Shown here: piece by piece, positions 21,288-52,830 of the stretch
Layout of the letters: each line of letters starts with the position of its first letter
Numbering within the stretch: position 1 is the stretch's first letter
DNA from: an uncultured Staphylococcaceae bacterium
GTDB lineage: Bacteria > Bacillota_I > Bacilli_A > RFN20 > CAG-826
Direction of reading: 5' to 3'
Assembly: GCA_964654155.1 (NCBI GenBank)
Contig: CAZZGL010000002.1
Coordinates: 35,902 to 99,901 of the forward strand
DNA: 64,000 nt
Program-made: the position numbers and the translations under genes
The notes under the pieces: generated by a model
Database searches by the model: none
What the model saw: the letters and a program-made list of their open reading frames with translations, nothing else
Told to the model about the DNA's origin: nothing

Positions 21288-21302
21288 AGAAAGGATTATC
21301 CA

Positions 21303-22637: not shown

Positions 22638-22731
22638 TACTAAAATATTTGCTTTTCCAAAATTCACTAAAATATATCCCGATTTACAATAGCTTTTCTT
22701 TTTTTCTTAATTATTCTGAGAAACTATCGCT

Positions 22732-22786
22732 GTAATCTGTAAATCCTAAATATTTAGATTACATTCTTTTATTCAAATGATATAAT
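22732..22786 (+). promoter_or_regulatory. Nested palindromic operator GTAATCTgtaaatcCTAAATATTTAGATTACat overlapping the -35 of a TGATATAAT promoter for the PLD-nuclease gene
   Basis: Outer arms GTAATCT/AGATTAC and inner 12-bp perfect palindrome CTAAATATTTAG. The TG-extended -10 is at 22778-22786, 25 nt before the ATG and an AAGGAGAG RBS. Confidence 0.45.
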
Positions 22787-22810
22787 CAAAAACATAAGGA
22801 GAGTTAACTT

Positions 22811-23596: not shown

Positions 23597-23644
23597 TTAT
23601 TTCTCCCTATCTGTAATTAAATAAACAACAATACTTAAATTACA

Positions 23645-23692
23645 AAGAGTTATTAACATGAAATTTAATTCATTTAATTAACTCTTTTTTTA
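23645..23692 (+). terminator. Rho-independent terminator of the PLD-nuclease gene
   Basis: AAGAGTTATTAA...TTAATTAACTCTT long imperfect stem followed by TTTTTTT. Confidence 0.5.
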
Positions 23693-23955
23693 TTTGATAG
23701 CTATGACGATATAAAATTGAATTGCACTTCATATAACTAAATTATTTATCAATAATAATTCTAAGTTTATTAATATTATAATTCATAATTTATGAACTAT
23801 TTTTTATTAAAAATCAGTTATTAAATTATTATTTAATATATATTTATATATATTAATTTTAAAAAAAATTATGAACAAAAAAATTCATGACATTGCTAAT
23901 TTTTATTACAAATAATACGATTTATAATTTTGTTGTAATCAAGGAGTGATGAAAG

Positions 23956-30127: not shown

Positions 30128-30187
30128 TGAACCAAACTATGAAAAAAGGGAGTAACACCTAATTTGGCGCTATTCCCATTTTTTACT

Positions 30188-30211
30188 GGCTCTTTAAAAT
30201 CTGGGGTGGTT
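30188..30211. repeat. IS left terminal inverted repeat
   Basis: GGCTCTTTAAAATCTGGGGTGGTT. Confidence 0.8.
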
Positions 30212-30318
30212 GGCGAAATTAAGCAAACCACTCTAAATTTTATAGATTTCGAACTTCAAAAAGAAAAGACCTCTTATAATTTATGTGTCAAATCCAATTA
30301 TTAAGGAGGTCTTTTCAT

Positions 30319-31593
30319 ATGGATTTTAACACATTACTTATAAGATTTGGTTTCGATAGTTCCAATTTTACAAATAAAATTATTAATACTATTGAGCATA
30401 ATGATGGAATTATATATGAAGTTGAAGAAATGTGCTCAAAAAATATATGTCCAAATTGTAATCATAGATATTTGGTCGTTCATAGCCATAAATGGATAAA
30501 TATTAAATTATCATCGATGCTTAAACTAAAAGAATGTTTAAGAATAAGACGAGTTAGATACAAATGTCCTAAATGTAACAAAACTTTTACTTTCAGCTTA
30601 AAGGGAATAGAAAAGAATAATTCAATTAGTAATTTTGTTATTACAGCAATAAAAAATGAATTTTATACTATTCAATCTTTTTCTACTATTGCAAAAAGAT
30701 ATGAATTGTCTACTCAAACTGTATTAAATATTTTTGATGATTATACAAAGATAATGCCACGAAGACCACTTCCACAATATTTATGCATAGATGAAAAACA
30801 TTTTGAAGGTGATACTGATGGTAAATATTGTGTTATTATATCTGATTTCTTTTCTAGTGAAGTTATAGATGTTTTAGAAAATAGACAAATGCCTTATTTA
30901 GATGCTTATTTTTCTAAAATATCTCAAAAAGAATGTGAAAATGTTAAAGTTTTTATATCTGATATGTATGATGCATATTCAACAATAAAAAACAAATACT
31001 TTCCGCACGCTTTATTTGTTGCTGATTTATTTCATGTCGTTAAATTATTAACAACCTCTCTTAATAAAATTAGAATCAGAACTTATAATCAGTATGCTAT
31101 AGAAGGCTCGATTGAAAAACACTTCATGAAAACAAACTGGAAATCGTTTTTAATAGATCTTTTTAAAATTCAAAAAAATGAATATTATAGTAGAAAATTT
31201 GATACATACATAAGTTATAGTGAAATTATTCTTAGATGCTTAAAGTTAAATATAACATTTTGGGATGGATATACCATACTTCAAGAATTACTCCATTATG
31301 ATAAATATGAAACATATTCCGAAGCGGAAAGATTTTTAACTAGAATCATTAATAAATTAGATGCATCAGACGATGAATTATTAAATAAAGTTGCAGCTTC
31401 TTATAAAAAATGGAAAGTCGGTATTGTTAATGGATTAGCTAAAAATCAAACTGGAAAAAGATTTAGCAATGCAATCGCAGAAGGTAACAATTCACACATT
31501 CAAAAGATCATTAATGTTTCTTATGGATATAGAAATTTTAAAAGATTTCGAGCAAGAATTATGTTGATTTTAACATACAAAATAAAAGGATGA
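30319..31593 (+). CDS. ISL3-family transposase
   Basis: N-terminal zinc finger CPNCN...CPKCN (zf-ISL3) followed by the DDE domain (CIDEKHF...ISDMYDAY...ADLFHVVK). An AAGGAGG RBS supports the MDFNTLL start. Confidence 0.85.
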   Translation: MDFNTLLIRFGFDSSNFTNKIINTIEHNDGIIYEVEEMCSKNICPNCNHRYLVVHSHKWINIKLSSMLKLKECLRIRRVRYKCPKCNKTFTFSLKGIEKNNSISNFVITAIKNEFYTIQSFSTIAKRYELSTQTVLNIFDDYTKIMPRRPLPQYLCIDEKHFEGDTDGKYCVIISDFFSSEVIDVLENRQMPYLDAYFSKISQKECENVKVFISDMYDAYSTIKNKYFPHALFVADLFHVVKLLTTSLNKIRIRTYNQYAIEGSIEKHFMKTNWKSFLIDLFKIQKNEYYSRKFDTYISYSEIILRCLKLNITFWDGYTILQELLHYDKYETYSEAERFLTRIINKLDASDDELLNKVAASYKKWKVGIVNGLAKNQTGKRFSNAIAEGNNSHIQKIINVSYGYRNFKRFRARIMLILTYKIKG

Positions 31594-31660
31594 TGTACTA
31601 CAATAATACACCACCCTAGATTTTATAGTTTTTGGGGTTTTAAACTTTGCAACCACCCTA

Positions 31661-31684
31661 AACCACCCCAGATTTTAAAGAGCC
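31661..31684. repeat. IS right terminal inverted repeat
   Basis: AACCACCCCAGATTTTAAAGAGCC, the reverse complement of the IRL. Confidence 0.8.
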
Positions 31685-31699
31685 CTTATAAAATTATAA

Positions 31700-34600
31700 C
31701 TACGCTCTTGTGATTGTGACAACGATATTACCTGTAACTTCTAATGGAGTTTCTTCTATAAAGAATACTTCATCACCAGAACCTTCAAAAATAGTTTCGC
31801 CACTCATTGTAACTGTCACTTTTAAATTAGCATAATAAGAAGAAAGATAACTTTCCATGCCTATTGTCGATCCTTCAGAAAGAATTGTAGATGTTGATCC
31901 ACCTAAGCTACAATAATACTCACCATTAATGTATAGATAGACTGAGACATAATAAGAAGGTAAATCATTGCTGCACTCAACTTTAAATGTATATCCAACT
32001 TTCTTTACTACTTTAATCGTTATATCCCCATTAATAATATAATTTCCATAATAATCTTGTTGAACTTCATTTTCAGCATCATTTGTATATGATACTTCAA
32101 ATGCATAATAATAGCCATTTCCAGCATCATCACTTGTGGAAATACTTAAATAATCTCCTTTATATAAAGCATTCACTAATGATTCGACTTCAGCTTCATT
32201 AATTTTATATGAAATATCAATACCATATTCATTTTCAATAGTAACTGTTAATGGTATAAGTTTTTCTATATTAATTGTTATTTCAACATTAGATCCTATT
32301 CCAGAATAACTATCAAATGAATATTGAATTGATTCTCCAGAATTATATCCATATGTAGAATCTAAAGTTTCTGTTTTGTCACCATCTTTAATAATAATTG
32401 TTGCTACATATCCAACCTTGGTTGTAACAGAGAAGCTAATTGTTTCTCCCTTAATAAAGGTTTCTGTTCCCGCAGAAGTAATTGAAACACATGATTTATA
32501 ACCATTTACATAAAATGATTTTATTCCTTCTTGTGCATCAGAACTTAATTCATTAACCTTAACGCTTGATGTTTCGGCATTTTTAAATGTTGCAGTTAAC
32601 GTTACATCATAAGCCGGCATGACAAATGTAGCATTTCTAAGGGACTCAGATATTACAACATTAATATCATCATGTCCGACAACAGAGATTGTATCAATTT
32701 CATAGAATCCGCTTGTTGGAGATATACCAACAGTAACAGTTTGACCCTCACCAAAGGAAGTTCCTGAATTTAATGTAATTCTACCTTTTGTGGTGTCCAT
32801 AGAAGAATCAATTTCAACTTTATATGTTACTCCATAATTAAATGAAATATTTACATCACTACCATCGCTTGGCATTGTAATAGAAACTCGATTTTCATAA
32901 CTAGACCATGATGTAGTAATATTGGCGGTTGAATCTTCACCGTTAATCTTGATTCCTTTAACATAGAATCCTTCTTTGACATTAAATAATAAATAGAAGC
33001 TCTTACCCGGTGCTGCGCCTGTTATTGCTGTTGAAGAATTATTATCAGTCAAACTAACTTTTGAACTATCAATAGCCTCACAATCTTCAACAGTTATTTT
33101 CCCACATGTACCAACTTCAAAAATAATGATAATATCATTACTTGGCATTGTAAAGCTAATATAATCAGCTGAAGGGATCAATTCACTTGTTCCTTCAATG
33201 CCATAAACTTTAATTGATTTAATATAATCTCCACTATCTTTAGCGGTAACTTTCATTGAAATACTTGTTCCTGGTATTGCAGATTCAATAATTGTGTTTC
33301 CACTACTAGTATAAGAAGAAATATTAACTAAATCTAAATTACCATAGTTGATACGCTTTTCTCCAACCATTTCACCTTCAATTTTATATGTACGATTCTT
33401 TTCAAAACTAGAAACGCTTAATGATGCAACATCATTATTGAAAGAAAAACTATCTTCTTTCCAGTTGCTTTCGATATCTTCTAATCCTTCTTCCAAATAT
33501 TTAATAGAAGAAACAACATAACCATGTTTAACAAATACTTTTGGAGAAACATAGGTATACTTCTTATCTGCTTCATAGCCATAAACACTAACATATTCAT
33601 CATTTTCAAAACTAATCGTATGTCCATCTTCACTTTCAGTATTAGATGAATATACAATGGCAATATCTAAATCAGAATCTGGAACTTCAAATTCAACAGT
33701 TGTTTCTGTATTATCAGATTCATTAAGTACAGGACGATAAACTTTGTCATTTATATGAACATATAAACCATTGTTATTGTATGATAATGACCATTGGGAA
33801 GAAATAACTAATTTTTCTGTAGCTCCTTTATATAGCTCATCACCTTCGTTTAATGAGAAAGTTAATGATTTGGTATTACTATCTGTTTTAATAGAAGAAA
33901 CCTTTACAGAAGCAGTGAATTTTGGAGTTAAAGTAACATTATTTTCTGGCATAATGAAACTATATGAATTATTTTCTTCAACTTCTTTAATTTCAAGATC
34001 TTCATCATCTGCGGTAATACCATCAAATCTATAACCCTTTTCAGTTACAACATCAATGGTAACTAAATCACCTAAGATTGTCTTAGTGGTTGAAACAAAT
34101 AAATATCCACCTTCTACTTTTTCAGTTTTAACTTCAAAAGTTTTAGAAGTAAATGAAGCATCAATAACTACATTTGATGCAGGCATTGTGAATGAATATG
34201 TATTTTCTTCACCTTCAGTTAATGATAAATTATCAATATTTGTGGTAATTCCATCAAATCTATAACCAGAATTTGCAGCATATGTAACGGTAATTTTATC
34301 ACCAACATGTGCGGTTGCTGGAGAAACTGTAACTGATCCTCCTTGAATAGAAGAGGCAACAATTACATCATAACTAATCTTTTCAAATGTAGCATCAATA
34401 ACTACATCTCTTCCTGGCATATTAAATTTATATTTACTACCAACAGTAATAGGTGAAATAACAACACCTTCAACCTCACTGCCGATGGTTTTTAATTCAT
34501 ATCCCTTATTTGCGGTAACATCAACAATAATTGATGTTCCCATAACTGCTTTATCAACTGAGAAATTAATACTTCCGTTTGCAATACTTGAAGCAGAAAT

Positions 34601-35212
34601 ACCATAACTATTAAGAGTAAATTCTGCATTGACAGTTATATTACAAGCAGGCATAACGAATGTATATGCAAGTTTATCAGAATCTTTAACTTCACTAAAT
34701 GTAACACTAGAAACATCAGATTCTAGTTTAACAAATCCATATCCTTCATTTGCAGATGGATAAACTGTAATTGTAGCTCCTGCACTTGCTTCTTCTAAAG
34801 AGAAGGAAAGTGATCCACCAACAATTGCTTTATTAGCGGAAATGGAATACTTATTAGGAGTAAATTCCGCATTAACAGTAATATCACTAGCAGGCATAAC
34901 GAATGTATACTCGATTTTTTCAGTTGTGTCTACTTGTGAAAATGTAACACTATCGACATTTGAAGAGAAAGATACAAAACTGTAGCCTTCATTCGCGGTA
35001 GCGTAAACAGAAATTGTGGTGCCTGCAACTGCTTCTGCTGAAGAGAAAGAAATTGAACCACCAACAATGTCGGATGCAGCAGAGACATGATATGACGTTG
35101 GAACAGCTGTCGTAGTAGGAGCTGTTGTTGATCCACTTGTCGTAGGATTCTCATTTTGTACGCATCCTACCAATACTAATGTAAAAAGTAATGGCAAAAA
35201 TTGTTTTTTCAT
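31700..35212 (-). CDS. Giant surface lipoprotein with about 8 divergent InlB B-repeat (Listeria-Bacteroides repeat) modules
   Basis: Lipobox LVGC. About 81-aa modules each end in F(V/T)MP(A/S)xDVxxxAxF. The start is trimmed to the ATG after a GGAGA RBS. Confidence 0.7.
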   Translation of the reverse strand: MKKQFLPLLFTLVLVGCVQNENPTTSGSTTAPTTTAVPTSYHVSAASDIVGGSISFSSAEAVAGTTISVYATANEGYSFVSFSSNVDSVTFSQVDTTEKIEYTFVMPASDITVNAEFTPNKYSISANKAIVGGSLSFSLEEASAGATITVYPSANEGYGFVKLESDVSSVTFSEVKDSDKLAYTFVMPACNITVNAEFTLNSYGISASSIANGSINFSVDKAVMGTSIIVDVTANKGYELKTIGSEVEGVVISPITVGSKYKFNMPGRDVVIDATFEKISYDVIVASSIQGGSVTVSPATAHVGDKITVTYAANSGYRFDGITTNIDNLSLTEGEENTYSFTMPASNVVIDASFTSKTFEVKTEKVEGGYLFVSTTKTILGDLVTIDVVTEKGYRFDGITADDEDLEIKEVEENNSYSFIMPENNVTLTPKFTASVKVSSIKTDSNTKSLTFSLNEGDELYKGATEKLVISSQWSLSYNNNGLYVHINDKVYRPVLNESDNTETTVEFEVPDSDLDIAIVYSSNTESEDGHTISFENDEYVSVYGYEADKKYTYVSPKVFVKHGYVVSSIKYLEEGLEDIESNWKEDSFSFNNDVASLSVSSFEKNRTYKIEGEMVGEKRINYGNLDLVNISSYTSSGNTIIESAIPGTSISMKVTAKDSGDYIKSIKVYGIEGTSELIPSADYISFTMPSNDIIIIFEVGTCGKITVEDCEAIDSSKVSLTDNNSSTAITGAAPGKSFYLLFNVKEGFYVKGIKINGEDSTANITTSWSSYENRVSITMPSDGSDVNISFNYGVTYKVEIDSSMDTTKGRITLNSGTSFGEGQTVTVGISPTSGFYEIDTISVVGHDDINVVISESLRNATFVMPAYDVTLTATFKNAETSSVKVNELSSDAQEGIKSFYVNGYKSCVSITSAGTETFIKGETISFSVTTKVGYVATIIIKDGDKTETLDSTYGYNSGESIQYSFDSYSGIGSNVEITINIEKLIPLTVTIENEYGIDISYKINEAEVESLVNALYKGDYLSISTSDDAGNGYYYAFEVSYTNDAENEVQQDYYGNYIINGDITIKVVKKVGYTFKVECSNDLPSYYVSVYLYINGEYYCSLGGSTSTILSEGSTIGMESYLSSYYANLKVTVTMSGETIFEGSGDEVFFIEETPLEVTGNIVVTITRA

Positions 35213-35348
35213 AGACAATTGTCTCCTTTCCTAAACACATTTATGTGTTTTTTTATTTTTTAATAATAAATAAAACATTTTTCTTTGTAAAGTGATTTTA
35301 TTAAAAAAATTATCAAAATTTATATTTTTTTCAATTTAAGAAGCAAAA

Positions 35349-35392
35349 AACGGCAATTATTGACACTAATTGTATCAAACTGCCGTTTAACA
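35349..35392 (-). terminator. Rho-independent terminator of the 5-gene lipoprotein operon
   Basis: On the minus strand, AAACGGCAG-(24 nt)-TGCCGTTT followed by TTTTTGC. Confidence 0.5.
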
Positions 35393-35397
35393 TGTAA

Positions 35398-38274
35398 TTA
35401 TAGATTAAAACTTAAAACAGATCTAATTTCGTTAATTACATAAACAACTTTTATACATGATGGTGAAGTTGTTTGGATATAATCCATTGATCTAATTTCT
35501 GTAATTGCTGAATTTGACGATACCATATTACTAATATTGATTGTGGTACTATTTTCAGTAATCACTACTGAATAATCAATAGTAACTTTTGCAAAAACTG
35601 AAGAATTTGAATTTTGAGTGAAAATAATTTCTGCTTTATTATTTAAGAAAGAAATGGTTATAGTACACATTCCAGCTCCATTAACAAATGAACTAGTTGT
35701 AAGTGTTTTGCCATCTAAGAAATCGCTTAAATTACCAATTTCTTTTTTCTCTGTAAATTTATACTTACTAAAGAAATCAACCATATTTCCTTGCGAGTCT
35801 TCATAAGATTCATCGGCAGTCATTTGTAAATAGAAATTAATAGTCGACAAATCTTTACTATATGGACATTTATTTCCTAAGATTTTGCTGAAATAGAAAG
35901 CAGAACTCTTAAAATTTTGAGTTTCTGGAATTAATATTCTACCATCCTCTATTTGATAATTAATAGTCTCCTCTATTTTTTCTTCATATAAAGTTTGTGT
36001 AAATGTTAATAATGTTTCACTTGTAAATTCAATTTCAAAACTTAATGTTAATCCTGATGAATATGTATAAACCTTTTTAGGAGTTACTAATTTTTCAATT
36101 AAATACTCTTTTGTATAAGGTTCTTCAACAGTGATTGTATAATATTGTTCAGTTTTTATAGATTCATCTTCTTTAACATAGAATTTAAATTTATAACTTC
36201 CAACAATTTTACCCTCAATTGAATAACTATACCCTGGATTATCATCAAGATTATTTTTAACATGATGATACAAAGCAAGGCCATTATCATTGCCTTCTAT
36301 AATTTCTATACCAAATGTGTATATGTCTTCATCTGGATTCGTATTTAAGAAGAAGTAATCACTATAATCTCCTTTAAATATTTCACCAAAATCATTACTA
36401 TCATCAATATGTGTAGCAATTAGTCCTTTTAAATTAGTTTTTTTGAATTCAACCATAATGCTATAACTATATCCTGATGTGGAAGTAAAAGTAAATGTTG
36501 ATTGACCTGGTAAAGCATTATTATCATCATCTTTTTTAGCATTGATTGTAACAATTCCCGCAGATGTAATTGAAATATTTGGAATTGAATCCGGATCAGA
36601 ACTTGATGAAGTTATTTGATCTATTAATGTTGTTGCGGTCGATGGAGAGCCTTCTCCAATTTTAAATACTAAAGCCTTATCATATGTTGCGGTATATTTC
36701 TTAATTCCATTAACTATTTCTACTGAATCCGCTCCATATTTAGATGTATTTGTATAATCATAGGAAACGCCTACATCATTTTTCTTTCCAGAAAGATCTA
36801 CAAGATTAAATGATTTATAATAATATTGATTTAAATCCACTAATGAATCATAAGCGGAATCAGAAACTTTCTTACCAAACACAAAATTACTTGCTTTTTC
36901 ACTATATGTAATTGTTTCAGATATTTCATTTTCTTTATCATCTACATAAGTGATAGTTAAAGTTTCTTCAAATGTATATCCTTTAATTACATTGGTCTTA
37001 TCTAAATCAATTGTTAATTTAACATCATAAGGAATATCTGTATTATCATCAATATATTTAGATGAAATAATATATTGGTCTTCATTTAATTCATATTTTG
37101 CATATGCATAACATGTTGTATTTCCAAAAGTAATAACATTTTCTGATATTGTCGATACTGAACTTAAATAATTATTTAAAATTCCATTGTGACCATAAAC
37201 AGGAACATTACTCATTACATCAAAATATAAAGAGGCTTCATTTACTAATTCACTATTTGCTAAAGCAGCTTCATTTTTATATATTTCTGTTATTTGTTGA
37301 TTTTCATCATACAAGAACGCATAATATTTATTCTTATTAACGCCATGATACAAATTTGTTTTTACTTTATCAGAATCGGTTTTATATACATAAGAGGAAT
37401 TTGAATAAGACTTATGCGATATTTCTTCTTTATATGTTGAAGGAGTTCCTTTATTAATAACTGATTTTCTTTCTTTTACAACTGTAGAAGATAAAAGCGA
37501 AGATGTTTCAACTTCCTTAAATTCAGCAATTTTAGAAATAACTTTAGCGTTATTTTCTGTATTAGGATCATAGACATTAAATACTCTTGATCCTTTTTTT
37601 GCTGCCTCAAAATAATCATCATACCGGGCACTAGCGACAATTTCCACGCCTTCCATAATGTCATAGAAAACGACTTTTGCACGGTTGTCTTCTTGAATTT
37701 CTAAACTATATGAATTTGTCTCTGCAGCAGCATTTCCGTCCACCAAGACTTCATAACTTATTGAAGAAGGAGTTCTTCCATAAGATGGCGTTAATTCATA
37801 ATTCACATAGAATACTTGTCCTAATGGGACTTTATAAAACTTAGTTTCAGAATCTTCAATTACATTATCATTACCTTCAACAAACACAGATATTGCAGTA
37901 ATTTTTGGAACAGTAACTGATACATTATGGGTTGCAGATAAAGTTGGATATTTAACCGATGTCGCGGTAATAGTAACTTCACCTTCTTTAATTCCAGTTA
38001 CAATTCCTTTTTCATTAACAGAAGCAATCGTAGAATCACTGCTTGTCCATGTCACATCATCATAACTACTTGTTACAACATCTGCGACTAAAGGTATAGT
38101 TTTTGTTATTTCAACAAAACTTGGACCAACAATAACAACTTTTGTTGGATTCTCTTCAACAAGTTGTGTGGTTGTTGGATTTGTAGAAGTTGTTGGATTC
38201 TCTTCTTTACCATTACACGAAACAACACAACCTAGAAAAGATAAAACTGTTAACAATTTAACAACCTTTTTCAT
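35398..38274 (-). CDS. Surface lipoprotein with a bacterial Ig-like (Big_2) domain
   Basis: Lipobox FLGC. Big_2-like segment VTWTSSDSTIASVNEKGIVTGIKEGEVTITATS. Confidence 0.6.
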   Translation of the reverse strand: MKKVVKLLTVLSFLGCVVSCNGKEENPTTSTNPTTTQLVEENPTKVVIVGPSFVEITKTIPLVADVVTSSYDDVTWTSSDSTIASVNEKGIVTGIKEGEVTITATSVKYPTLSATHNVSVTVPKITAISVFVEGNDNVIEDSETKFYKVPLGQVFYVNYELTPSYGRTPSSISYEVLVDGNAAAETNSYSLEIQEDNRAKVVFYDIMEGVEIVASARYDDYFEAAKKGSRVFNVYDPNTENNAKVISKIAEFKEVETSSLLSSTVVKERKSVINKGTPSTYKEEISHKSYSNSSYVYKTDSDKVKTNLYHGVNKNKYYAFLYDENQQITEIYKNEAALANSELVNEASLYFDVMSNVPVYGHNGILNNYLSSVSTISENVITFGNTTCYAYAKYELNEDQYIISSKYIDDNTDIPYDVKLTIDLDKTNVIKGYTFEETLTITYVDDKENEISETITYSEKASNFVFGKKVSDSAYDSLVDLNQYYYKSFNLVDLSGKKNDVGVSYDYTNTSKYGADSVEIVNGIKKYTATYDKALVFKIGEGSPSTATTLIDQITSSSSDPDSIPNISITSAGIVTINAKKDDDNNALPGQSTFTFTSTSGYSYSIMVEFKKTNLKGLIATHIDDSNDFGEIFKGDYSDYFFLNTNPDEDIYTFGIEIIEGNDNGLALYHHVKNNLDDNPGYSYSIEGKIVGSYKFKFYVKEDESIKTEQYYTITVEEPYTKEYLIEKLVTPKKVYTYSSGLTLSFEIEFTSETLLTFTQTLYEEKIEETINYQIEDGRILIPETQNFKSSAFYFSKILGNKCPYSKDLSTINFYLQMTADESYEDSQGNMVDFFSKYKFTEKKEIGNLSDFLDGKTLTTSSFVNGAGMCTITISFLNNKAEIIFTQNSNSSVFAKVTIDYSVVITENSTTINISNMVSSNSAITEIRSMDYIQTTSPSCIKVVYVINEIRSVLSFNL

Positions 38275-38286
38275 ATAATTTCCTCC

Positions 38287-48159: not shown

Positions 48160-49545
48160 TTATAAAGTGATACCAAATGGTAAAGTGGTTGTTCCAATAT
48201 TTGAAAATTCTAAAGTATAATTACCGGCATAAACATCCCAGCCATTATTGTAACTATAAACAATATAAATAGTTTTTAAATTATTATTATCATCTAAAGT
48301 AATATCGAATTGACTTGTATAACCATTTAATTCTGTTGTAGATGAAATTGGTGGTACAAAGCATTCAGAAGCAATATATGGTAATAATTCACTAGTAGCG
48401 CTATAGACTTTAGTGTCTTCATTATAATCGAATACTTCTGGAGCAACATCACTAATTATTGGACGGAAATAATCAACAGAAGCACCGATTACTTGGGAGA
48501 ATCCGTTGCTAATTGCTGCCGCAGCAGTCCATTTATCATTCACATCATCATATCCCCATGGAGTAACAGTTCTTGTGGTTTCATCCACTCTTAAAATCAT
48601 ATCATTGCTTTGGCTTGGTTCATCTGGTGCAGTTAAATCATCTTGAGTACTGGATCTAACTTGCCAATAAATATCACTATCAGCAAAATAGAAAGTATGA
48701 ACAATAGTTGTGGTATCTGTTCCATAATCATTAGAATCCCATTTAACTTTTAAAGTATAGTTGTTTTCAATATTCTCAAAAGCGGTTTTTAATGGAGCAT
48801 GATAACTCTTAGTTTTTCTTAATTCAGGAACTGCAATTTTAGCGGAACCAACATCGGAGAATCTAATTCTTACCTCTGTTTCAAGTTCATAATATTGATT
48901 TTGTTGTCCAACGGTTGCGTAATCTTGAATTACAACTGGTTCAATTTTAGCGGACTTTAAGGTTCCGTTTTCAATGGTAAATTCTGCTTTTTCACATGTT
49001 TCATAGAAAACATTGTCTATTTGACCAAAAAGCATATAAGAAAGCCAAAATGCTTTTGATTTATCTAACTCATATACATTTCCTGATTTTTTAGTAAAAT
49101 CACTCGCTGAAATATGGGTAAATGGATTGTCAAAATAATAAGAATAGTTAATGCTATTTCCTAATGAATCAACCGCTGCAACTGCTTCTAATTTATTTTT
49201 ATAACCTAATTCATAGAAATAAGCACAGCCATCGTTTCCTTTGATGAAGGTATCATCTAGTTTTGTAACTTCTGAACCATTTGAAACATAAGTGACTTTT
49301 TGACTAACGCCAACAATGTCAGAATTTTGATAATTATAAGAAATAGTATAAATATTTTCACTGCTTTCTCCAGTTCTTTCACCTTCAGAAGCAGTTAACC
49401 AATATGCTGTTTGAGAAATAGTTCCTTCAACAACAAATCCTTTGCAAAGATCCTTAACAATTGAATTAAGTTCATCGCCTCCACAACTTGTAAGTGGAAT
49501 TATTGCTGCGGCGCTTAAAACCGCACATAAAATTTTCTTGTTCAT
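48160..49545 (-). CDS. Lipoprotein, hypothetical
   Basis: Signal peptide and lipobox LTSC. Confidence 0.5.
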   Translation of the reverse strand: MNKKILCAVLSAAAIIPLTSCGGDELNSIVKDLCKGFVVEGTISQTAYWLTASEGERTGESSENIYTISYNYQNSDIVGVSQKVTYVSNGSEVTKLDDTFIKGNDGCAYFYELGYKNKLEAVAAVDSLGNSINYSYYFDNPFTHISASDFTKKSGNVYELDKSKAFWLSYMLFGQIDNVFYETCEKAEFTIENGTLKSAKIEPVVIQDYATVGQQNQYYELETEVRIRFSDVGSAKIAVPELRKTKSYHAPLKTAFENIENNYTLKVKWDSNDYGTDTTTIVHTFYFADSDIYWQVRSSTQDDLTAPDEPSQSNDMILRVDETTRTVTPWGYDDVNDKWTAAAAISNGFSQVIGASVDYFRPIISDVAPEVFDYNEDTKVYSATSELLPYIASECFVPPISSTTELNGYTSQFDITLDDNNNLKTIYIVYSYNNGWDVYAGNYTLEFSNIGTTTLPFGITL

Positions 49546-49560
49546 TTTTTGTTCTCCTTT

Positions 49561-50943
49561 TTATTTAGTTAATGTTTCTAAGAAATTTTCAATATATGTT
49601 GCATAATCGCTATTAGATGCTTGACCAAAAGATGATATCGTTTTTGTTGTTTGTTTTCCTAATGGTTCTTTTGTTGTAACATCATAATAATCCGCAACCA
49701 TCGTTATTGTTGAATATGGTTCCATATTACCTTCACGTAAATTATAAGAAATGTATATCTTTCCAATATATTCTTTTTGCTTATCAATGGTATTATCAAT
49801 GCAATCTTCATATTCTTCTAATAAAGTTGCATCACTGCAAGTATAGACTTCATCAGCAAATGTACAAATATCGAATATATTTGAAGGTATGACGTAATCT
49901 AAATCATAGATTGCTTTATAGTTTGTCTTTTTGCCTAATTTAACATTGCCTGTTGAAGAATCAACTGTATATTCATAAATTCCATCTTCTATTGTCTTAT
50001 TACCGGAAATCGAAACGAATCCTTTTACAATCTCGATTTCATTTATTTCATCCCAAACTGATATTTGAACATAATTAGATGTTACTATATAGTTGGTATT
50101 TTCATCAATTGAAACTGTGTAATCTTTATTATCTAAAAGTGTTTTTAGTTTATCTTCATCCGAATCTAAAACTTCTTCACTAGGACCTTTTCCTTCTTTA
50201 AGATATTCTTCAATATAAGGAATTGTTGTAGTTCCAATATCTTTAACTTCTAAAGTATAAGTACCAAGATCTATTCCAAAGCAAGTAGCTTTATACTGAA
50301 TTATTAATCCATCACCACTTAATCCTAATCTTGCTTGTACTTCTTGATAACGAAGAGTATCTTGTATTCCAATTGCAGGAATAACATCAATTACTTTTTT
50401 ATAATCAATATTATACATTCCTGGAACTGCAGGTGATTCAGTAAGACCTTCTAAACTATTAATATCAAATAACTTAAATGAATAGGCTATTTTTTCCATT
50501 CTAACTGAAGAACTATTTTTATTAATTTCTGCGGTATAAATATCATGAAGATTATTTTTATCGTCATCTTTTAAATAATTAGATTTTAAAACCAAACTAT
50601 CTTCTTCAATTTTAAACATAAAAATGCCAATCTCATTTTCAGCATACCCTCTTGTATCAATGTCATCAAAATATCCTGGCGCATTATAATAGGTAGCATT
50701 AGGTAAAATTCGACTTTTCCACTCACCATCACTATCGTTGATAACCATTGTATAGTTTTGATTTGTTTGTAAATCAACAATTAAATCTTTTATTTTTTCT
50801 AAATTAGTTCTGGTGTCAACAACTGTTGATGTAGGTGGTTCTAAGGAAGGTTCTGTAGTTGAAGAAGCATTACCTTGACCTTCATTACAGCCCGCTAGAG
50901 CAACCATAAGAAGTAAAGATAAAAATAAAATTTTCTTTTTCAT
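49561..50943 (-). CDS. Lipoprotein, hypothetical
   Basis: Signal peptide and lipobox LAGC. Confidence 0.5.
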   Translation of the reverse strand: MKKKILFLSLLLMVALAGCNEGQGNASSTTEPSLEPPTSTVVDTRTNLEKIKDLIVDLQTNQNYTMVINDSDGEWKSRILPNATYYNAPGYFDDIDTRGYAENEIGIFMFKIEEDSLVLKSNYLKDDDKNNLHDIYTAEINKNSSSVRMEKIAYSFKLFDINSLEGLTESPAVPGMYNIDYKKVIDVIPAIGIQDTLRYQEVQARLGLSGDGLIIQYKATCFGIDLGTYTLEVKDIGTTTIPYIEEYLKEGKGPSEEVLDSDEDKLKTLLDNKDYTVSIDENTNYIVTSNYVQISVWDEINEIEIVKGFVSISGNKTIEDGIYEYTVDSSTGNVKLGKKTNYKAIYDLDYVIPSNIFDICTFADEVYTCSDATLLEEYEDCIDNTIDKQKEYIGKIYISYNLREGNMEPYSTITMVADYYDVTTKEPLGKQTTKTISSFGQASNSDYATYIENFLETLTK

Positions 50944-50975
50944 AAATTTTCTCCTTTCTTGTTTCTATATATTAT

Positions 50976-51050
50976 GTACACATGTGCGTAACGCACGCGC
51001 GTGTATGAATATTTAAAAGATATATTTAAAACTTAAAATTGTCAAGTAAA
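50976..51050 (-). promoter_or_regulatory. Promoter (TTGACA-17-TATATC, minus strand) and GC-rich triple palindrome in the leader of the 3-gene lipoprotein operon
   Basis: CACATGTG, GTGCGTAACGCAC and ACGCGCGT are overlapping palindromes at 50976-51006. They lie immediately downstream of the predicted -10. Confidence 0.35.
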
Positions 51051-51076
51051 TTCTTTTCTTAAAAAACTACTAAACG

Positions 51077-51106
51077 CCAAAAAAGCTTTGCTAAAATCAG
51101 CAAAGC
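51077..51106 (-). terminator. Rho-independent terminator of the CotH-like lipoprotein gene
   Basis: GCTTTGCT-aaaatc-AGCAAAGC, a perfect 8-bp stem, followed on the minus strand by TTTTTTGG. Confidence 0.6.
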
Positions 51107-51144
51107 AATTAAGTTTTATTTAAATTATCTAGTTTCTGTGATTA

Positions 51145-52830
51145 TTAATATTTTGATAAAGCTTCTTTAAAAAAATCTAAATATATTCTTGAACGATGAT
51201 TAATAAAATCACGAGTGCTTCTAATACTTTTCTCCCAATCTTTATAAAAACTATCTGGTTGTCCCCATCTAATTCCCGCTTCTTTTTTATAATCAACAAC
51301 AGAATCGACCATTTCAACTAAAATCTCATTTGCAATTTTTGAAGTTAAAACAGTTTCCATCAATTCTTCAGCACGAGCGTATAATCTATCTCTAAAATCC
51401 TCAACTTTTAATAACTTATTAAGCAATGTGAATCGTGAATACGAAAAACTTTGTGTAGGTAATAAATAATTATTATAATCAGTAAATGCAAAATCAAGAT
51501 CATGCAGACAGAATCTCCATTTTCCATCTGTATATTCATTACCTTTTTCCTCGTCAATAGCGCGCCACATTTTCATATTATTATAATTACCAACCGAATC
51601 CCAGTTACCTGCATAATGGTTTGCAATTATAAAATCAATAAAACTATCAATATCTATATACTTATCTAATAATTTTTCATACTGACTTGGTTTTGTTAAA
51701 TCACAAGAATTAATATATTGATTAAAATCTTCAAAACATTCTTTTCCTAATTCTTCATTGCCATCATCAAATGTTAAGACACCTTTATATTCATAAATAA
51801 CTACATTATCTTTATCAACATTATAATTGTTTTCAAAATAAACATCGCTATAATGCTCACGAATATAATAAATACCCCAATACTCTCCGTTTAAAAAGGC
51901 AATACATGGTCTACAAGCAGAAGTTGCGACATTTGTATCCGCGAACAAATTATGAATTAACGCATCATTAAATCCAGTCCAGCTTTCAAAGCAATTTCCT
52001 CCATTGTGGAGTCTGAATCTAGTTAATCCTGTAAGAGGTTCATCTTTAAAGCCTCTTTTCGTTCTTCCATCAAAAATATCAACATTAATCGGTTTATTTT
52101 TATTTCCATTTTGATCTTTATTAAAATTAAGATTAAGTGTTCTTTGAGGATAACCTTTTGAGTAATTACCTCCTAATTTAATTTTACTATTAACATAAAA
52201 TGTTTCATTTAAAACCGGATCAAAATATTCTAAATTAACTCTTTTAGAGGTATCATTTAAAATATCGTTATACATTCCTTTGCTTCCAAACCAATCTTTA
52301 AATGGCATTGATAAAGATACAATAGGTATTGTCAAATATTTACTTTCCTTATCGATTATATATGTCAAGCTTCTATTTAAAATTTCTGTCTCATTAACTT
52401 CATCTTTAACAGAAATAGTAATTACATTACATCTATCTAATGTTGGATATTTTTTCGGTACTTGAATGTTATTAATATAATTAGTGCTTGAAACTTTTTG
52501 ATCTGTGGTATTAGCTAAAATACCATCAACATGAGTGGTCAACGGATAATCATCAATATCATTTGTCGGAAGAATATCTATTTCAATAGGATTAATAAAA
52601 GGGATATCAGGTTCAGTATAATCTAATGAATAATAAACTGCATAATTTTCATTTTTTACTTTAACTTCAATATCTAGTGCCGAATCATAAATACCTGGCA
52701 AGTAATTTACATAAACATCTTCACACAATTGATGAAATCCTTTAAATTCATCATTAATTTCTATGTTTGTTCCACTACATCCACTAAGCAATAATGCAAT
52801 CGCAGAAATAAAAATATATTTTTTTTGCAT
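51145..52830 (-). CDS. CotH-family (kinase-like) lipoprotein
   Basis: Lipobox LSGC. The C-terminal segment NYNNMKMWRAIDEEKGNEYTDGKWRFCLHDLDFAF resembles the CotH conserved core. Confidence 0.45.
   Translation of the reverse strand: MQKKYIFISAIALLLSGCSGTNIEINDEFKGFHQLCEDVYVNYLPGIYDSALDIEVKVKNENYAVYYSLDYTEPDIPFINPIEIDILPTNDIDDYPLTTHVDGILANTTDQKVSSTNYINNIQVPKKYPTLDRCNVITISVKDEVNETEILNRSLTYIIDKESKYLTIPIVSLSMPFKDWFGSKGMYNDILNDTSKRVNLEYFDPVLNETFYVNSKIKLGGNYSKGYPQRTLNLNFNKDQNGNKNKPINVDIFDGRTKRGFKDEPLTGLTRFRLHNGGNCFESWTGFNDALIHNLFADTNVATSACRPCIAFLNGEYWGIYYIREHYSDVYFENNYNVDKDNVVIYEYKGVLTFDDGNEELGKECFEDFNQYINSCDLTKPSQYEKLLDKYIDIDSFIDFIIANHYAGNWDSVGNYNNMKMWRAIDEEKGNEYTDGKWRFCLHDLDFAFTDYNNYLLPTQSFSYSRFTLLNKLLKVEDFRDRLYARAEELMETVLTSKIANEILVEMVDSVVDYKKEAGIRWGQPDSFYKDWEKSIRSTRDFINHRSRIYLDFFKEALSKY

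What the first reader, a model, noticed from the sequence alone, without database searches (positions are those of the whole stretch)
31700..52830. 21-kb cluster of eleven same-strand lipoprotein genes in four transcription units
Every minus-strand gene from 31.7 to 52.8 kb begins with a basic N-terminus, a hydrophobic core and an L-x-(G/S)-C lipobox. Genes are joined by 10-15-nt gaps or by overlaps (TAATG at 43461-43465; an 11-nt overlap at 41901-41911). Only two promoter regions are visible: 35219-35348 for the single-gene 1172-aa unit and 50944-51076 for the 3-gene unit. The region upstream of 45196 (45197-45374) is divergent from the ADH gene and shows no discernible promoter motif. Terminators lie at 35349-35392, 46585-46627 and 51077-51106. 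Domain content is adhesin-like: InlB B-repeats, Big_2, a BspA LRR, a CotH-like domain and M6-like zincins. This resembles surface-antigen loci of Mollicutes/Erysipelotrichia, and it lies next to an IS element.
Basis: partly seen in the sequence, partly recalled or inferred. Interest (0 to 1): 0.55.

Follow-up and report, generated by a model that had tools for sequence, protein, structure and literature searches.

The report
Conserved surface-lipoprotein protease operon plus neighbours
This stretch holds ten (not eleven) membrane-anchored surface-protein genes from an uncultured gut bacterium, and its core is not a variable antigen locus but a fixed five-gene operon, found in every relative examined, that probably builds a cell-surface protein-cutting complex of unknown target.

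Summary
There are ten, not eleven, consecutive minus-strand genes with lipoprotein signal peptides (9/10 by a strict lipobox pattern, against 0/39 other ORFs in the window). They lie in four plausible transcription units, and the stated overlaps, terminators, domains and adjacent ISL3 element are all present.

The interpretation needs revision. The 21 kb is not one system. Its core, g6-g5-g4-g3-g2 (35398-45178), is a translationally coupled operon. It is kept in identical order in all 11 related loci recovered, all from uncultured Bacilli in genome or metagenome assemblies, down to about 38% identity, and with different flanks. The Flg_new_2 repeat lipoprotein g1 usually sits beside it.

The operon encodes:
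- two anciently duplicated M6/thuringilysin-like metzincins. g5 always keeps HExxHxxGxxD. g6 has lost zinc ligands in this clade but remains under purifying selection;
- two paralogous lipoproteins built of tandem roughly 200-aa LolA-like beta-barrel domains. This family has no Pfam model and only 77 representatives among 1.84 billion proteins;
- a large all-beta Big_2 lipoprotein.

The LRR unit g9-g8-g7 and the CotH gene g10 are linked to the core only at strain level. No phase-variation machinery is present.

Best reading: a lipid-anchored surface proteolytic complex whose substrate is unknown. Moderately interesting; a new variant of a known kind.

The parts
30178..31694 (+). ISL3-family insertion sequence (transposase ORF 30283-31593). 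It is strain-specific and lies just downstream of the g1 stop codon (31700-31702). It is not part of the lipoprotein system.
   Evidence: Pfam DDE_Tnp_ISL3, E 8e-42. 34-nt inverted repeats, 91% complementary. Window 30188-31983 has no counterpart in the 97% strain L011, where g1 abuts the GH31 gene.
31700..35212 (-). g1: repeat-rich lipoprotein of about 1170 aa with 6 Flg_new_2 (divergent InlB B-repeat) domains. It is the monocistronic companion of the cassette.
   Evidence: Pfam PF18998, 194 bits, 6 stretches. Lipobox LVGC. A g1-like gene lies next to the cassette in 9 of 11 related loci, on either side. Length varies (1172 aa against 1076 and 1087 aa). It has the highest dN/dS, 0.31. Internal 231-243-nt repeats.
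35263..35291 (-). Candidate sigma-70-type promoter of g1 (TTTACA-17-TATTAT).
Evidence: Consensus scan. It is a match to a consensus only.
35349..35392 (-). Intrinsic terminator that ends the five-gene operon.
   Evidence: Hairpin of -19.2 kcal/mol, z -4.9, followed by U6.
35398..38274 (-). g2: 958-aa lipoprotein with an N-terminal Big_2 domain and about 830 aa of all-beta sequence with no family. It is the last gene of the cassette.
   Evidence: Pfam Big_2 at residues 54-107; 15 of 16 orthologues hit Big_2 and nothing else of note. The AF2 model is poor (pLDDT 53) but all-beta, and its Foldseek matches are chains of Ig-like domains and S-layer proteins. Orthologue present in all 11 loci.
38287..40260 (-). 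g3: 657-aa lipoprotein made of three tandem roughly 200-aa LolA-like open beta-barrel domains. It is the founding member of an undescribed family, here called TLL.
   Evidence: No Pfam or NCBIfam hit. AF2 pLDDT 89.5, pTM 0.74, with the secondary-structure pattern repeated three times. Foldseek hits to LolA, BFA1 and kievitone hydratase, prob 0.9-0.99 but TM 0.2-0.4. Only 77 representatives among 1.84e9 proteins. Lowest dN/dS, 0.045.
40271..41911 (-). g4: 546-aa lipoprotein, a paralogue of g3 (TLL family).
   Evidence: hhalign against the g3 profile: 95% probability, E 3.7e-8. The domain-2 HMM hits g4 residues 50-243, E 4.4e-8. Orthologue with a lipobox in all loci.
41901..43463 (-). g5: 520-aa lipoprotein, an M6/thuringilysin-like metzincin predicted to be catalytically competent.
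   Evidence: Pfam Peptidase_M6, 33.2 bits against a cutoff of 22; TIGR03296, 94.9 bits, below its cutoff of 110.8. HE[TM]GHFLGLxDYY and a downstream [ML]MD (MMD in 11 of 12) are conserved in all 12 g5 sequences. dN/dS 0.077.
43463..45178 (-). g6: roughly 571-aa lipoprotein, an ancient paralogue of g5 whose zinc site is degenerate here (KEACH). It is the first gene of the cassette. The ORF extends to TTG at 45196, but ATG 45178 is the likely start.
   Evidence: 34% identity to g5 over the full length. Pfam M6, 23.4 bits. The motif is HE[TH]GH in 6 of the 11 related loci, [KR]E[AT]CH in the window clade and HEQGR in L003. dN/dS 0.097. Conserved GGAGG-7-ATG.
45179..45374 (-). Leader and promoter region of the cassette, divergent from the ADH gene. 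It contains a weak extended -10 candidate (45264-45237) and a 16-nt x2 tandem repeat (45198-45230).
   Evidence: The candidate is conserved in L011 but not clearly in L012.
45318..46580 (+). Iron-type alcohol dehydrogenase gene on the opposite strand. It separates the cassette from the g9-g7 unit and is not a member of the system.
   Evidence: Pfam Fe-ADH and ADH_Fe_C. It is kept next to g6 only in the close relatives L011 and L012.
46585..46627 (-). Bidirectional terminator between g7 and the convergent ADH gene.
   Evidence: Hairpin of -14.4 kcal/mol, z -4.9, followed by U6; inverted repeat I3.
46632..48146 (-). g7: 504-aa BspA-type leucine-rich-repeat lipoprotein, third gene of the g9-g8-g7 unit.
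   Evidence: Pfam LRR_5, 208 bits. Lipobox LMGC. 80% identity to the L011 orthologue.
48160..49545 (-). g8: 461-aa lipoprotein with no family. It is a probable distant TLL member, on the evidence of a C-terminal motif only.
   Evidence: No Pfam hit. hhalign gives only 33% probability. It shares the 'YTLE..IGTTT[IL]P' motif with g9; the two copies are 83% identical over 41 nt (repeat D13).
49561..50943 (-). g9: 460-aa lipoprotein, a TLL family member and first gene of the three-gene unit.
   Evidence: hhalign against the g3 profile: 96.9% probability, E 1.4e-10. It is hit by the g3 profile in the exhaustive search (P0102, E 2.8e-6). The domain-2 HMM gives E 4.4e-9.
51017..51045 (-). Candidate sigma-70-type promoter of g9-g8-g7 (TTGACA-17-TATCTT).
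   Evidence: Consensus scan; sequence.
51085..51106 (-). Intrinsic terminator after g10.
   Evidence: Found by the scan (9 pairs, followed by a T run). Fold of -12.9 kcal/mol, z -2.1.
51145..52830 (-). g10: 561-aa CotH-domain lipoprotein, monocistronic.
   Evidence: Pfam CotH, 138.6 bits. Lipobox LSGC. Not found near the cassette within the 10-kb flanks of the related loci.

Best explanation
The 21-kb stretch is a juxtaposition of three independent lipoprotein units, seen together only at strain level.

THE CORE. The core is a five-gene, translationally coupled operon, g6-g5-g4-g3-g2 (35398-45178, minus strand), with a usual companion, g1. It is a fixed cassette of an uncultured, low-GC gut Bacilli lineage.

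PROPOSED MECHANISM.
1. Each product is exported and lipid-modified at its conserved lipobox cysteine. This tethers it to the outer face of the cytoplasmic membrane.
2. The products assemble there into a hetero-oligomeric proteolytic complex.
3. g5 is the active thuringilysin-like (M6) metzincin.
4. g6 is its anciently duplicated partner. It is catalytically competent in most lineages. In this clade it is a dead but conserved pseudo-protease, which points to a structural, heterodimeric role.
5. g4 and g3 are a second paralogous pair, built of two to three tandem LolA-like beta-barrel domains. They would bind substrate or another ligand, or scaffold or regulate the proteases.
6. g2 (all-beta; possibly a chain of Ig-like domains) and g1 (a repeat array), which carry S/T/P-rich tethers, would project outward.
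7. The most likely role is degradation of host or dietary protein at the cell surface. The substrate is unknown.

THE OTHER UNITS. g9-g8-g7 (two TLL-type lipoproteins plus a BspA-type LRR lipoprotein) and g10 (a CotH lipoprotein) are separate surface units that happen to be adjacent in this strain.

SHOWN: gene content, lipoboxes, domain families, conservation of order, motif conservation or loss, purifying selection, and the g3 fold.

INFERRED: lipidation, complex formation, protease activity, and biological role.
For: - Lipoboxes in 10 of 10 genes here and in all orthologues.
- The same order g6-g5-g4-g3-g2 in all 11 related loci, at 38-97% identity for g3, with unrelated flanks.
- Overlapping or tightly spaced junctions both here and in relatives, for example 4-nt overlaps in L001.
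- A single strong terminator after g2.
- g5 keeps HExxHxxGxxD and a downstream [ML]MD in all 12 sequences. That is the metzincin motif with an Asp third ligand, as in thuringilysins (PMC12237041).
- 19 of 22 g5/g6 orthologues hit Pfam M6.
- g6 has lost zinc ligands in two lineages, yet its dN/dS is 0.097.
- The g5/g6 duplication predates the divergence of the lineages (identities in A5). g3 and g4 are likewise paralogues present in every locus.
- The g3 model is confident and has three repeated LolA-like barrels.
- TLL genes sit beside Big_2 lipoprotein genes in two further, differently arranged operons, L013 and L015.
- A LolA-like lipoprotein that activates a hydrolase has a precedent in GerS and its amidase (bioRxiv 10.1101/2025.01.13.632879, seen).
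Against: - No experiment or transcript data support any step.
- g5 falls below the NCBIfam TIGR03296 cutoff, and neither g5 nor the g5/g6 profile finds any solved structure by sequence.
- The LolA-like assignment rests on weak Foldseek scores, with TM 0.2-0.4.
- The g2 fold could not be obtained: pLDDT 53.
- No transporter is consistently linked to the cassette, which weakens the nutrient-acquisition reading.
- Complex formation is inferred only from co-conservation and translational coupling.
- lgt and lspA are not in the window.
- Promoter matches are not above background.
Confidence: 0.5

Rival explanations
1. Variable surface-antigen or adhesin locus. The genes encode immunodominant, rapidly diversifying surface lipoproteins whose content changes between strains, as in Mollicutes vsp/vlp-type loci.
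For: - The domains are adhesin-like: LRR_5, Big_2, Flg_new_2.
- g1 changes repeat number between strains and has the highest dN/dS, 0.31.
- g7 and g9 are 80% and 68% identical to L011 where g3 is 97%.
- g7-g9 are absent from that position in the 78% relative L012.
- A strain-specific ISL3 lies next door.
Against: - The five-gene core is invariant in order across 11 loci.
- Every gene has dN/dS below 0.35, and the core genes are at 0.045-0.11.
- There are no conserved 5' cassettes, simple-sequence tracts, invertible DNA or site-specific recombinases.
- Only g5/g6 and g3/g4/g9 are paralogous, and those duplications are ancient.
Confidence: 0.18
2. System for scavenging lipids or other hydrophobic ligands. 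The tandem LolA-like barrels of g3 and g4 (and g8, g9) would extract or shuttle lipids, or other hydrophobic cargo, to the membrane of a reduced-genome bacterium. The proteases would strip the protein carriers.
For: - The best fold matches of g3 are hydrophobic-ligand barrels: LolA with bound lipoprotein (7z6w), BFA1, kievitone hydratase and nitrobindin.
- The lineage is a low-GC gut Bacilli represented only by MAGs.
- Related orders have minimal metabolism (PMC10868615).
Against: - The fold scores are weak.
- No cavity analysis was possible.
- The lipid auxotrophy of this organism is unknown.
- LolA-like folds also serve as protein-protein regulators, as GerS does.
Confidence: 0.12
3. Immune-evasion protease system functionally analogous to Mycoplasma MIB-MIP or to the Thomasclavelia ramosa IgAse. 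Binding lipoproteins would capture host immunoglobulin and the metzincins would cleave it.
For: - Binding-type and protease-type surface proteins are encoded together in a host-associated Bacilli lineage.
- Gut metzincins with an Asp third zinc ligand that cleave IgA exist (PMC12237041).
- MIB-MIP is widespread in mycoplasmas (for example PMC8593674).
Against: - There is no sequence relationship to MIB, MIP (DUF31) or M64. Pfam finds only M6.
- Nothing ties the proteins to immunoglobulin.
Confidence: 0.07
4. Sporulation- or spore-surface-related lipoproteins. By recall, CotH is a spore-coat kinase, InhA-type M6 proteases occur in the Bacillus exosporium, and GerS is a LolA-like germination lipoprotein.
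For: - A CotH domain in g10, M6 domains in g5 and g6, and a LolA-like fold in g3.
- GerS is a precedent.
Against: - CotH is linked to the cassette only in this strain.
- The candidate promoters are sigma-A-like.
- There is no sequence homology to GerS or to any known spore lipoprotein.
Confidence: 0.04

Closest known systems
Immune inhibitor A / thuringilysins (MEROPS M6; Bacillus InhA1)
   Same: g5 and g6 hit the Pfam Peptidase_M6 catalytic domain. g5 carries the metzincin motif HExxHxxGxxD, with Asp as third zinc ligand, and a conserved downstream [ML]MD (PMC12237041).
   Different: - They are lipid-anchored rather than secreted.
- They occur as an ancient paralogous pair, one member of which is dead in some lineages.
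- They are fixed in an operon with three other lipoproteins.
- They score below the TIGR03296 cutoff and find no solved structure by sequence.
LolA-like fold lipoproteins (LolA/LolB, LppX/LprG; GerS of C. difficile)
   Same: Each roughly 200-aa domain of g3 is a helix-plugged open beta-barrel. Its best PDB matches include LolA from several species. GerS shows that such a lipoprotein can act as the partner or activator of a hydrolase in Firmicutes.
   Different: - Three (g3) or about two (g4, g9) barrels are fused in tandem.
- There is no sequence similarity to any Pfam LolA-type family.
- The family is restricted to 77 representatives.
- The Foldseek TM scores are low.
Mycoplasma MIB-MIP immunoglobulin binding/protease system
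   Same: It is a functional analogy only: adjacent genes for a surface binding protein and a surface protease in host-associated, reduced Bacilli relatives.
   Different: There is no homology. By recall, MIP is a DUF31 serine protease, whereas these are metzincins. The cassette is a single five-gene unit and not a set of repeated gene pairs.
Phase-variable lipoprotein multigene loci of Mollicutes (vsp, vlp, vsa, vlhA)
   Same: They are clusters of same-strand surface-lipoprotein genes, some of them repeat-rich.
   Different: There are no conserved 5' ends, no simple-sequence or invertible switches and no recombinase, and the core is invariant in order across species.
Sus-like surface lipoprotein complexes of Bacteroidota (polysaccharide utilisation loci)
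   Same: It is a conceptual analogy: an operon encoding lipid-anchored enzymes together with multi-domain beta-rich binding lipoproteins that act together at the cell surface. This comparison rests on my own knowledge.
   Different: There is no SusC/SusD-type transporter or any linked transporter, the enzyme class is a protease rather than a glycosidase, the phylum differs, and there is no homology.

Membership tests
Bacterial lipoproteins (Lgt/Lsp substrates) | An N-terminal signal peptide with basic n-region, hydrophobic h-region and a lipobox [LVI][ASTVI][GAS]C within about 35 residues. | tested here: met
   9 of 10 genes match a strict G+LPPv2-type pattern, against 0 of 39 other ORFs. g5 has the variant L-C-V-S-C, but its orthologues are canonical.
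Bacterial lipoproteins (Lgt/Lsp substrates) | Actual diacylglyceryl modification and cleavage by signal peptidase II, and lgt/lspA present in the genome. | not testable with these tools
   lgt and lspA are not in the 64-kb window, and there are no biochemical data.
Peptidase family M6 (thuringilysin / InhA) | A match to the curated family models above their thresholds. | tested here: inconclusive
   Pfam PF05547 is above its gathering score for g5 (33.2 against 22) and barely above it for g6 (23.4 against 22). NCBIfam TIGR03296 is below its cutoff for both (94.9 and 50.3 against 110.8). 19 of 22 orthologues hit PF05547.
Peptidase family M6 (thuringilysin / InhA) | The zinc motif HExxHxxGxxD, with Asp as third ligand. 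| tested here: met
   g5 has HETGHFLGLND, conserved in all 12 g5 sequences. The window g6 has KEACHLLGLED, so the feature is not met for g6 here, although it is met in 6 other lineages (motif definition from PMC12237041).
Peptidase family M6 (thuringilysin / InhA) | A Met-turn and the metzincin catalytic-domain fold. | not tested
   A conserved MMD lies about 20 residues after the motif and is a candidate Met-turn.
LolA-like fold superfamily | An unclosed antiparallel beta-barrel with a helical plug, recognisable by structure comparison. | tested here: inconclusive
   The AF2 model of g3 is confident: pLDDT 89.5. The Foldseek hits to LolA structures 1ua8, 9gtx, 7z6w and 4mxt have prob 0.90-0.98, but E is about 5e-3 to 1e-2 and TM is 0.29-0.39. 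The search used the whole chain, so no per-domain comparison was made.
LolA-like fold superfamily | Sequence membership of a described LolA/LolB/LppX/DUF family. | tested here: not met
   g3, g4, g8 and g9 have no Pfam or NCBIfam hit, and the g3 profile finds nothing in the PDB by sequence.
Phase-variable surface lipoprotein loci (Mollicutes type) | Several paralogous genes with near-identical 5' regions or signal peptides. | tested here: not met
   The only nucleotide-level repeats are inside g1, at the M6 active site, at one TLL motif and at one RBS region. Paralogue pairs are 34% identical or less.
Phase-variable surface lipoprotein loci (Mollicutes type) | A switching device: a homopolymer or simple-sequence tract in a promoter or coding sequence, an invertible segment, or a site-specific recombinase. 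| tested here: not met
   TRF finds only a 16-nt x2.1 repeat. There are no flanking inverted repeats apart from those of the IS. The only mobile-DNA enzyme is an ISL3 transposase.
Phase-variable surface lipoprotein loci (Mollicutes type) | Variation in content or copy number between strains. | tested here: inconclusive
   The core is invariant in 11 loci. The periphery varies: g1 length, loss of g7-g9 in L012, and the IS insertion.
MIB-MIP system | Homology to MIB and to the DUF31-type protease MIP. | tested here: not met
   Pfam scans of all ten proteins return no such family.
CotH kinase family (g10) | A full-length match to Pfam CotH above its threshold. | tested here: met
   PF08757, 138.6 bits against a cutoff of 23.8, covering profile positions 5-321 of 322. 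Kinase activity was not tested.
BspA-type LRR proteins (g7) | A match to Pfam LRR_5 repeats above its threshold. | tested here: met
   PF13306, 208.3 bits against a cutoff of 27.7, in 3 stretches.

The most novel reading that the evidence does not exclude
The cassette may be an undescribed kind of surface machine in reduced-genome gut Bacilli. In this reading a heterodimer of metzincins (one active and one regulatory) works with a heterodimer of tandem LolA-like barrel lipoproteins and an all-beta Big_2 stalk protein. Together they would capture a specific host macromolecule and process it. The macromolecule might be a lipid-carrying protein or a secretory immunoglobulin. The hydrophobic or peptide cargo would then pass to the membrane. 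This would be functionally parallel to mycoplasma lipid-extraction systems such as P116 (by recall) or to the antibody-cleavage system MIB-MIP, but built from unrelated parts.
Probability: 0.12. Interest if true: 0.75.

Novelty: new variant of a known kind. Interest (0 to 1): 0.4.

Why it matters
The uncultured, low-GC Bacilli lineages of animal guts are known only from assembled genomes, and almost nothing is known about what they display on their surface.

This locus defines a fixed five- to six-gene surface module for one such lineage. It contains a previously unrecognised lipoprotein family: tandem LolA-like barrels, with 77 representatives among 1.84 billion proteins. It also contains a metzincin pair in which one copy has repeatedly become a conserved pseudo-enzyme.

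If the products form a proteolytic complex, the module is a concrete, clonable handle on how these organisms feed on or interact with the host. It would also be a natural case of a protease/pseudo-protease pair.

For annotation, it shows that a run of lipoprotein genes with adhesin-like domains should not be read as a variable-antigen locus without comparative data.

Tried and rejected
- Homologue searches for g2, both with the single sequence and with a 16-sequence alignment, were swamped by multi-Big_2 proteins. They returned only six full-length homologues of at least 59% identity.
- The g2 model from 7 sequences is poor, with pLDDT 53 and pTM 0.27. Its Foldseek matches to chains of Ig-like domains and to S-layer proteins are only a hint.
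- PDB sequence searches with g5, g2, the g3 profile and the g5/g6 profile found nothing significant apart from the Big_2 segment.
- Rfam found no RNA family, and ARAGORN found no tRNA, in the window.
- Promoter-like matches are no more frequent than in shuffled sequence, so promoter assignments remain candidates.
- The GC-rich palindrome in the g9 leader folds no better than shuffles, z -1.7.
- Placing the lineage in a GTDB order failed. The record titles say only uncultured Bacilli, Bacillales, Staphylococcaceae or bacterium, and a supplement look-up for one assembly found nothing. Whether the organism is wall-less is therefore unknown.
- The first genome contigs attempt, with the 38-sequence alignment, had no stretch conserved enough to search with.
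- g8 could not be shown to belong to the TLL family beyond one shared motif.
- Reading the whole 21 kb as one functional cluster was rejected, because g7-g10 are absent from the flanks of every locus except the 97% strain.

Full report
1. WHAT IS IN THE SEQUENCE

The window is AT-rich, about 23-34% GC over 2-kb windows. It reads as ordinary bacterial chromosome under genetic code 11. It carries housekeeping genes (MetRS, TGT, QueA, YebC), glycoside hydrolases and ABC transporters.

Between 31700 and 52830 the minus strand carries ten long ORFs, not eleven. I call them g1 to g10, from low to high coordinates. One plus-strand iron-type alcohol dehydrogenase gene (45318-46580) interrupts the run. 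The gaps between genes are all under 200 nt, so an eleventh gene cannot be hidden.

Every one of the ten proteins starts with lysine or arginine residues, then a hydrophobic stretch, then a cysteine in a lipobox. A strict G+LPPv2-type pattern hits nine of the ten and none of the 39 other ORFs of at least 100 aa in the window. The exception is g5 (…LCVSC…), whose orthologues elsewhere have canonical boxes.

- g1: six Flg_new_2 repeats.
- g2: Big_2.
- g5 and g6: Peptidase_M6.
- g7: LRR_5.
- g10: CotH.
- g3, g4, g8 and g9: no family in Pfam or NCBIfam.

2. TRANSCRIPTION UNITS

g6/g5 overlap by 1 nt (TAATG) and g5/g4 by 11 nt. The other junctions are gaps of 10-15 nt.

Three terminator hairpins, each followed by a U-run, fold well:
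- after g2: -19.2 kcal/mol, z -4.9;
- after g7: -14.4 kcal/mol, z -4.9, shared with the convergent ADH gene;
- after g10: -12.9 kcal/mol, z -2.1 (inverted repeat I3).

Weaker candidates precede g6 (45264-45237, with an extended -10 TG) and g10 (52942-52913). Such matches are no more frequent than in shuffled sequence, so they remain candidates.

Four units therefore seem right: g10 | g9-g8-g7 | g6-g5-g4-g3-g2 | g1.

Two start codons should be moved. g6 starts at ATG 45178 behind a GGAGG that is conserved in two relatives. g1 probably starts at ATG 35212.

3. COMPARATIVE EVIDENCE: THE CORE IS A FIXED CASSETTE

g3 has only 39 homologous clusters among 5.8 billion proteins. None has a Pfam domain, and the only named ones are 'Bacilli bacterium' MAG proteins. 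An exhaustive profile search of 1.84 billion representatives found 77 hits.

I recovered 11 distinct related loci:
- L001 (L002 is essentially the same locus) and L003, from assemblies.
- L004-L010, from GTDB species representatives. All are titled uncultured Bacilli, Bacillales, Staphylococcaceae or bacterium, and several come from bins labelled SI/CO or from ruminant-gut projects.
- L011, a strain with a 97%-identical g3.
- L012, a relative with a 78%-identical g3.

In every one of these loci, tblastn finds g6, g5, g4, g3 and g2 in the same order and orientation. g3 identity goes down to 38%. The flanking genes differ from locus to locus:
- L001: GH3, GT2 and a metallophosphatase on one side; PRK, BacA and TGT on the other.
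- L003: an NMN transporter and GH127 on one side; thioredoxin-like genes on the other.
- L012: ADH and DUF2804 on one side; LytTR on the other.

The tight coupling is kept too, for example the 4-nt overlaps in L001. All orthologues keep a lipobox.

A g1-like Flg_new_2 lipoprotein lies downstream of the cassette in L001, L004, L008, L009, L011 and L012. It lies upstream in L005, L006 and L010. It is absent within the flanks in L003 and L007.

By contrast, g7-g9 accompany the cassette only in the 97% strain L011. In L012 other genes occupy that position. The g10 cluster has a member on the same 30,332-bp contig as L011, and no related locus shows a g10 match.

The ISL3 element has inverted repeats at 30178-30211 and 31661-31694. 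It is missing from L011, where g1 directly abuts the GH31 gene.

4. SELECTION

Against L011, all genes are under purifying selection (Nei-Gojobori).

| Gene | dN/dS |
|---|---|
| g3 | 0.045 |
| g5 | 0.077 |
| g6 | 0.097 |
| g2 | 0.109 |
| g4 | 0.114 |
| g8 | 0.143 |
| g7 | 0.159 |
| g9 | 0.226 |
| g1 | 0.313 |

Synonymous divergence is higher for ADH, g7 and g9 (0.74-1.0) than for the cassette (0.32-0.46). This suggests a recombination mosaic.

No conserved 5' cassettes, simple-sequence tracts, invertible segments or recombinases were found. Phase-variable antigen loci need at least one of these devices.

5. THE PARTS OF THE CASSETTE

(a) The protease pair, g5 and g6.
- They are 34% identical over their full length.
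- In an alignment of 22 orthologues, g5 is 49-87% identical to the other g5 sequences and 36-41% identical to the g6 sequences. The duplication therefore predates the lineages.
- 19 of the 22 hit Pfam M6.
- All twelve g5 sequences keep HE[TM]GHFLGLxDYY and a downstream [ML]MD (MMD in eleven of the twelve). HExxHxxGxxD is the metzincin motif with an aspartate third ligand, as in thuringilysins (M6) and snapalysins (PMC12237041).
- g6 keeps HE[TH]GH in six of the related loci. It reads [KR]E[AT]CH in the window clade (window, L011, L004, L012) and HEQGR in L003. That is two independent losses of zinc ligands, in a gene that stays under purifying selection.
- This pattern is what one expects if g6 has a structural role next to g5.
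- Neither protein nor their joint profile finds a solved structure by sequence. g5 is below the TIGR03296 cutoff. They are therefore distant M6 relatives.

(b) The tandem-barrel pair, g3 and g4.
- The AF2 model of g3 is confident (pLDDT 89.5, pTM 0.74). It repeats the same secondary-structure pattern three times: helix, six strands, helix, three long strands, helix. The three units span residues 42-233, 244-436 and 447-656.
- Profile searches detect the internal repeats.
- They also detect homology of g3 to g4 (95% probability, E 3.7e-8) and to g9 (96.9% probability, E 1.4e-10). g9 was also hit in the exhaustive search as P0102.
- g8 shares only a motif.
- Whole-chain Foldseek gives weak but consistent matches to open or closed beta-barrels that hold hydrophobic ligands: BFA1, kievitone hydratase, several LolA structures and nitrobindin. 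Probabilities are 0.9-0.99, but TM is only 0.2-0.4.
- I therefore call the domains LolA-like and treat that as provisional.

(c) g2.
- It has a Big_2 domain followed by about 830 residues of all-beta sequence with no family.
- The model from a 7-sequence alignment is poor, with pLDDT 53.
- Its matches to strings of Ig-like domains and to S-layer proteins are only a hint that g2 is a multi-Ig rod.

(d) A recurring partnership.
- In L013 (GCA_022780025.1) four lipobox genes run in the order TLL(434 aa), Big_2(804 aa), 555 aa, TLL(441 aa).
- In L015 the called genes run Big_2(852 aa), TLL(828 aa), 418 aa.
- Here g9 and g8 precede an LRR lipoprotein.
- TLL proteins thus repeatedly sit in operons with large beta-repeat lipoproteins.

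(e) Tethers. g1, g2, g7 and g9 carry S/T/P-rich, NPTT-type linkers after the lipid cysteine. This fits proteins that reach away from the membrane.

6. MECHANISM

The best-supported reading is as follows. The cassette products are exported and anchored by an N-terminal lipid. They then assemble on the outer face of the membrane into a proteolytic complex:
- g5 as the active metzincin;
- g6 as its partner, active in most lineages and a pseudo-protease here;
- g3/g4 as ligand-binding, scaffolding or regulatory tandem barrels;
- g2 and g1 as projecting beta-rich arms.

A LolA-like lipoprotein that activates a hydrolase has a precedent in GerS and its amidase (bioRxiv 10.1101/2025.01.13.632879).

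The following are shown: gene content, lipoboxes, conserved order and coupling, the fate of the motifs, purifying selection, and the g3 fold.

The following are inferred: lipidation, complex formation, activity and role.

The lack of any consistently linked transporter weakens a simple nutrient-uptake story.

7. RIVALS

- The variable-antigen reading fits only the periphery: g1, g7-g9 and the IS.
- Lipid scavenging fits the barrel fold but nothing else yet.
- An immunoglobulin-cleaving role, functionally like MIB-MIP or the T. ramosa IgAse, is possible but has no homology behind it.
- A sporulation link, through the known roles of CotH, InhA and GerS relatives, is unlikely. CotH is linked only in this strain, and the candidate promoters are sigma-A-like.

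8. NOVELTY AND VERDICT

Lipoprotein operons and M6-like proteases are known kinds. The new elements are:
- the fixed five-gene combination;
- the tandem-barrel family, which has no Pfam or NCBIfam model and which my limited searches did not find described;
- the recurrent protease-to-pseudo-protease transition.

I found no paper describing this cassette in the few targeted full-text searches I ran.

The taxonomic order of the host, and whether it lacks a cell wall, could not be established.

I rate it as a new variant of a known kind, with interest 0.4.

Noticed in passing
window 30178-31694: A complete ISL3-family insertion sequence with 34-nt inverted repeats. Its right end lies 5 nt from the g1 stop codon. 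It is absent from the 97% strain L011, so it is a recent insertion that has probably displaced the native g1 terminator: no hairpin follows g1 here (z -0.15).
   Followed up: yes
window 16572-25278: A defence island. It holds a SNF2/ZorD-like helicase, a Type II restriction endonuclease, an HNH Type IV-like nuclease, a C5 cytosine methyltransferase, a PLD-family nuclease with a DpnI C-terminal (methyl-directed) domain, and an AAA ATPase.
   Followed up: partly
window 9636-10736 (-): An AAA_21 ATPase that matches the PADLOC AbiLi model (E 2.7e-27). It lies next to two ORFs with little or no family assignment (7310-8632 none; 8620-9603 a GT-D-like domain only) and may be an abortive-infection module.
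   Followed up: no
window 43463-45178 (g6) and loci L003, L004, L011, L012: The g6 metzincin paralogue has lost zinc-binding residues independently in two lineages ([KR]E[AT]CH and HEQGR). Its dN/dS stays near 0.1, so it is a conserved pseudo-protease.
   Followed up: yes
window 45318-50943 compared with L011: Synonymous divergence from the 97% strain is two to three times higher for ADH, g7 and g9 (dS 0.74-1.0) than for the cassette and GH31 (0.29-0.46). This suggests that the segment was exchanged by recombination.
   Followed up: partly
window 50975-51005 (-), leader of g9: An unusually GC-rich imperfect palindrome (ACACGCGCGTGCGTTACGCACATGTGT) between the candidate promoter and the RBS. 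It is unique in the window. Its RNA fold is not significant (z -1.7). It may be an operator.
   Followed up: partly
window 45198-45230: A 16-nt unit (AAATTTAAATGTATTT) repeated 2.1 times in the leader of the five-gene operon. The same stretch is largely conserved in L011.
   Followed up: no
window 4414-7241 and L001 20598-21935: The queuosine genes (TGT, QueA, QueH) lie about 30 kb from the cassette here and immediately beside it in L001, where TGT is 85% identical. This may be a remnant of older synteny.
   Followed up: no
L013 3617-10334 (GCA_022780025.1) and L015 400-6727: Other operons that combine TLL-family genes with Big_2 lipoprotein genes but no M6 protease. This suggests that TLL plus a beta-repeat protein is the recurring unit, and that the proteases are an addition specific to this cassette.
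   Followed up: partly
window 52929-53702 (-): A NYN-domain (predicted RNase) gene lies directly upstream of g10, with no terminator detected between the two. Further upstream is an overlapping pair of ABC exporter genes (53668-57220).
   Followed up: no
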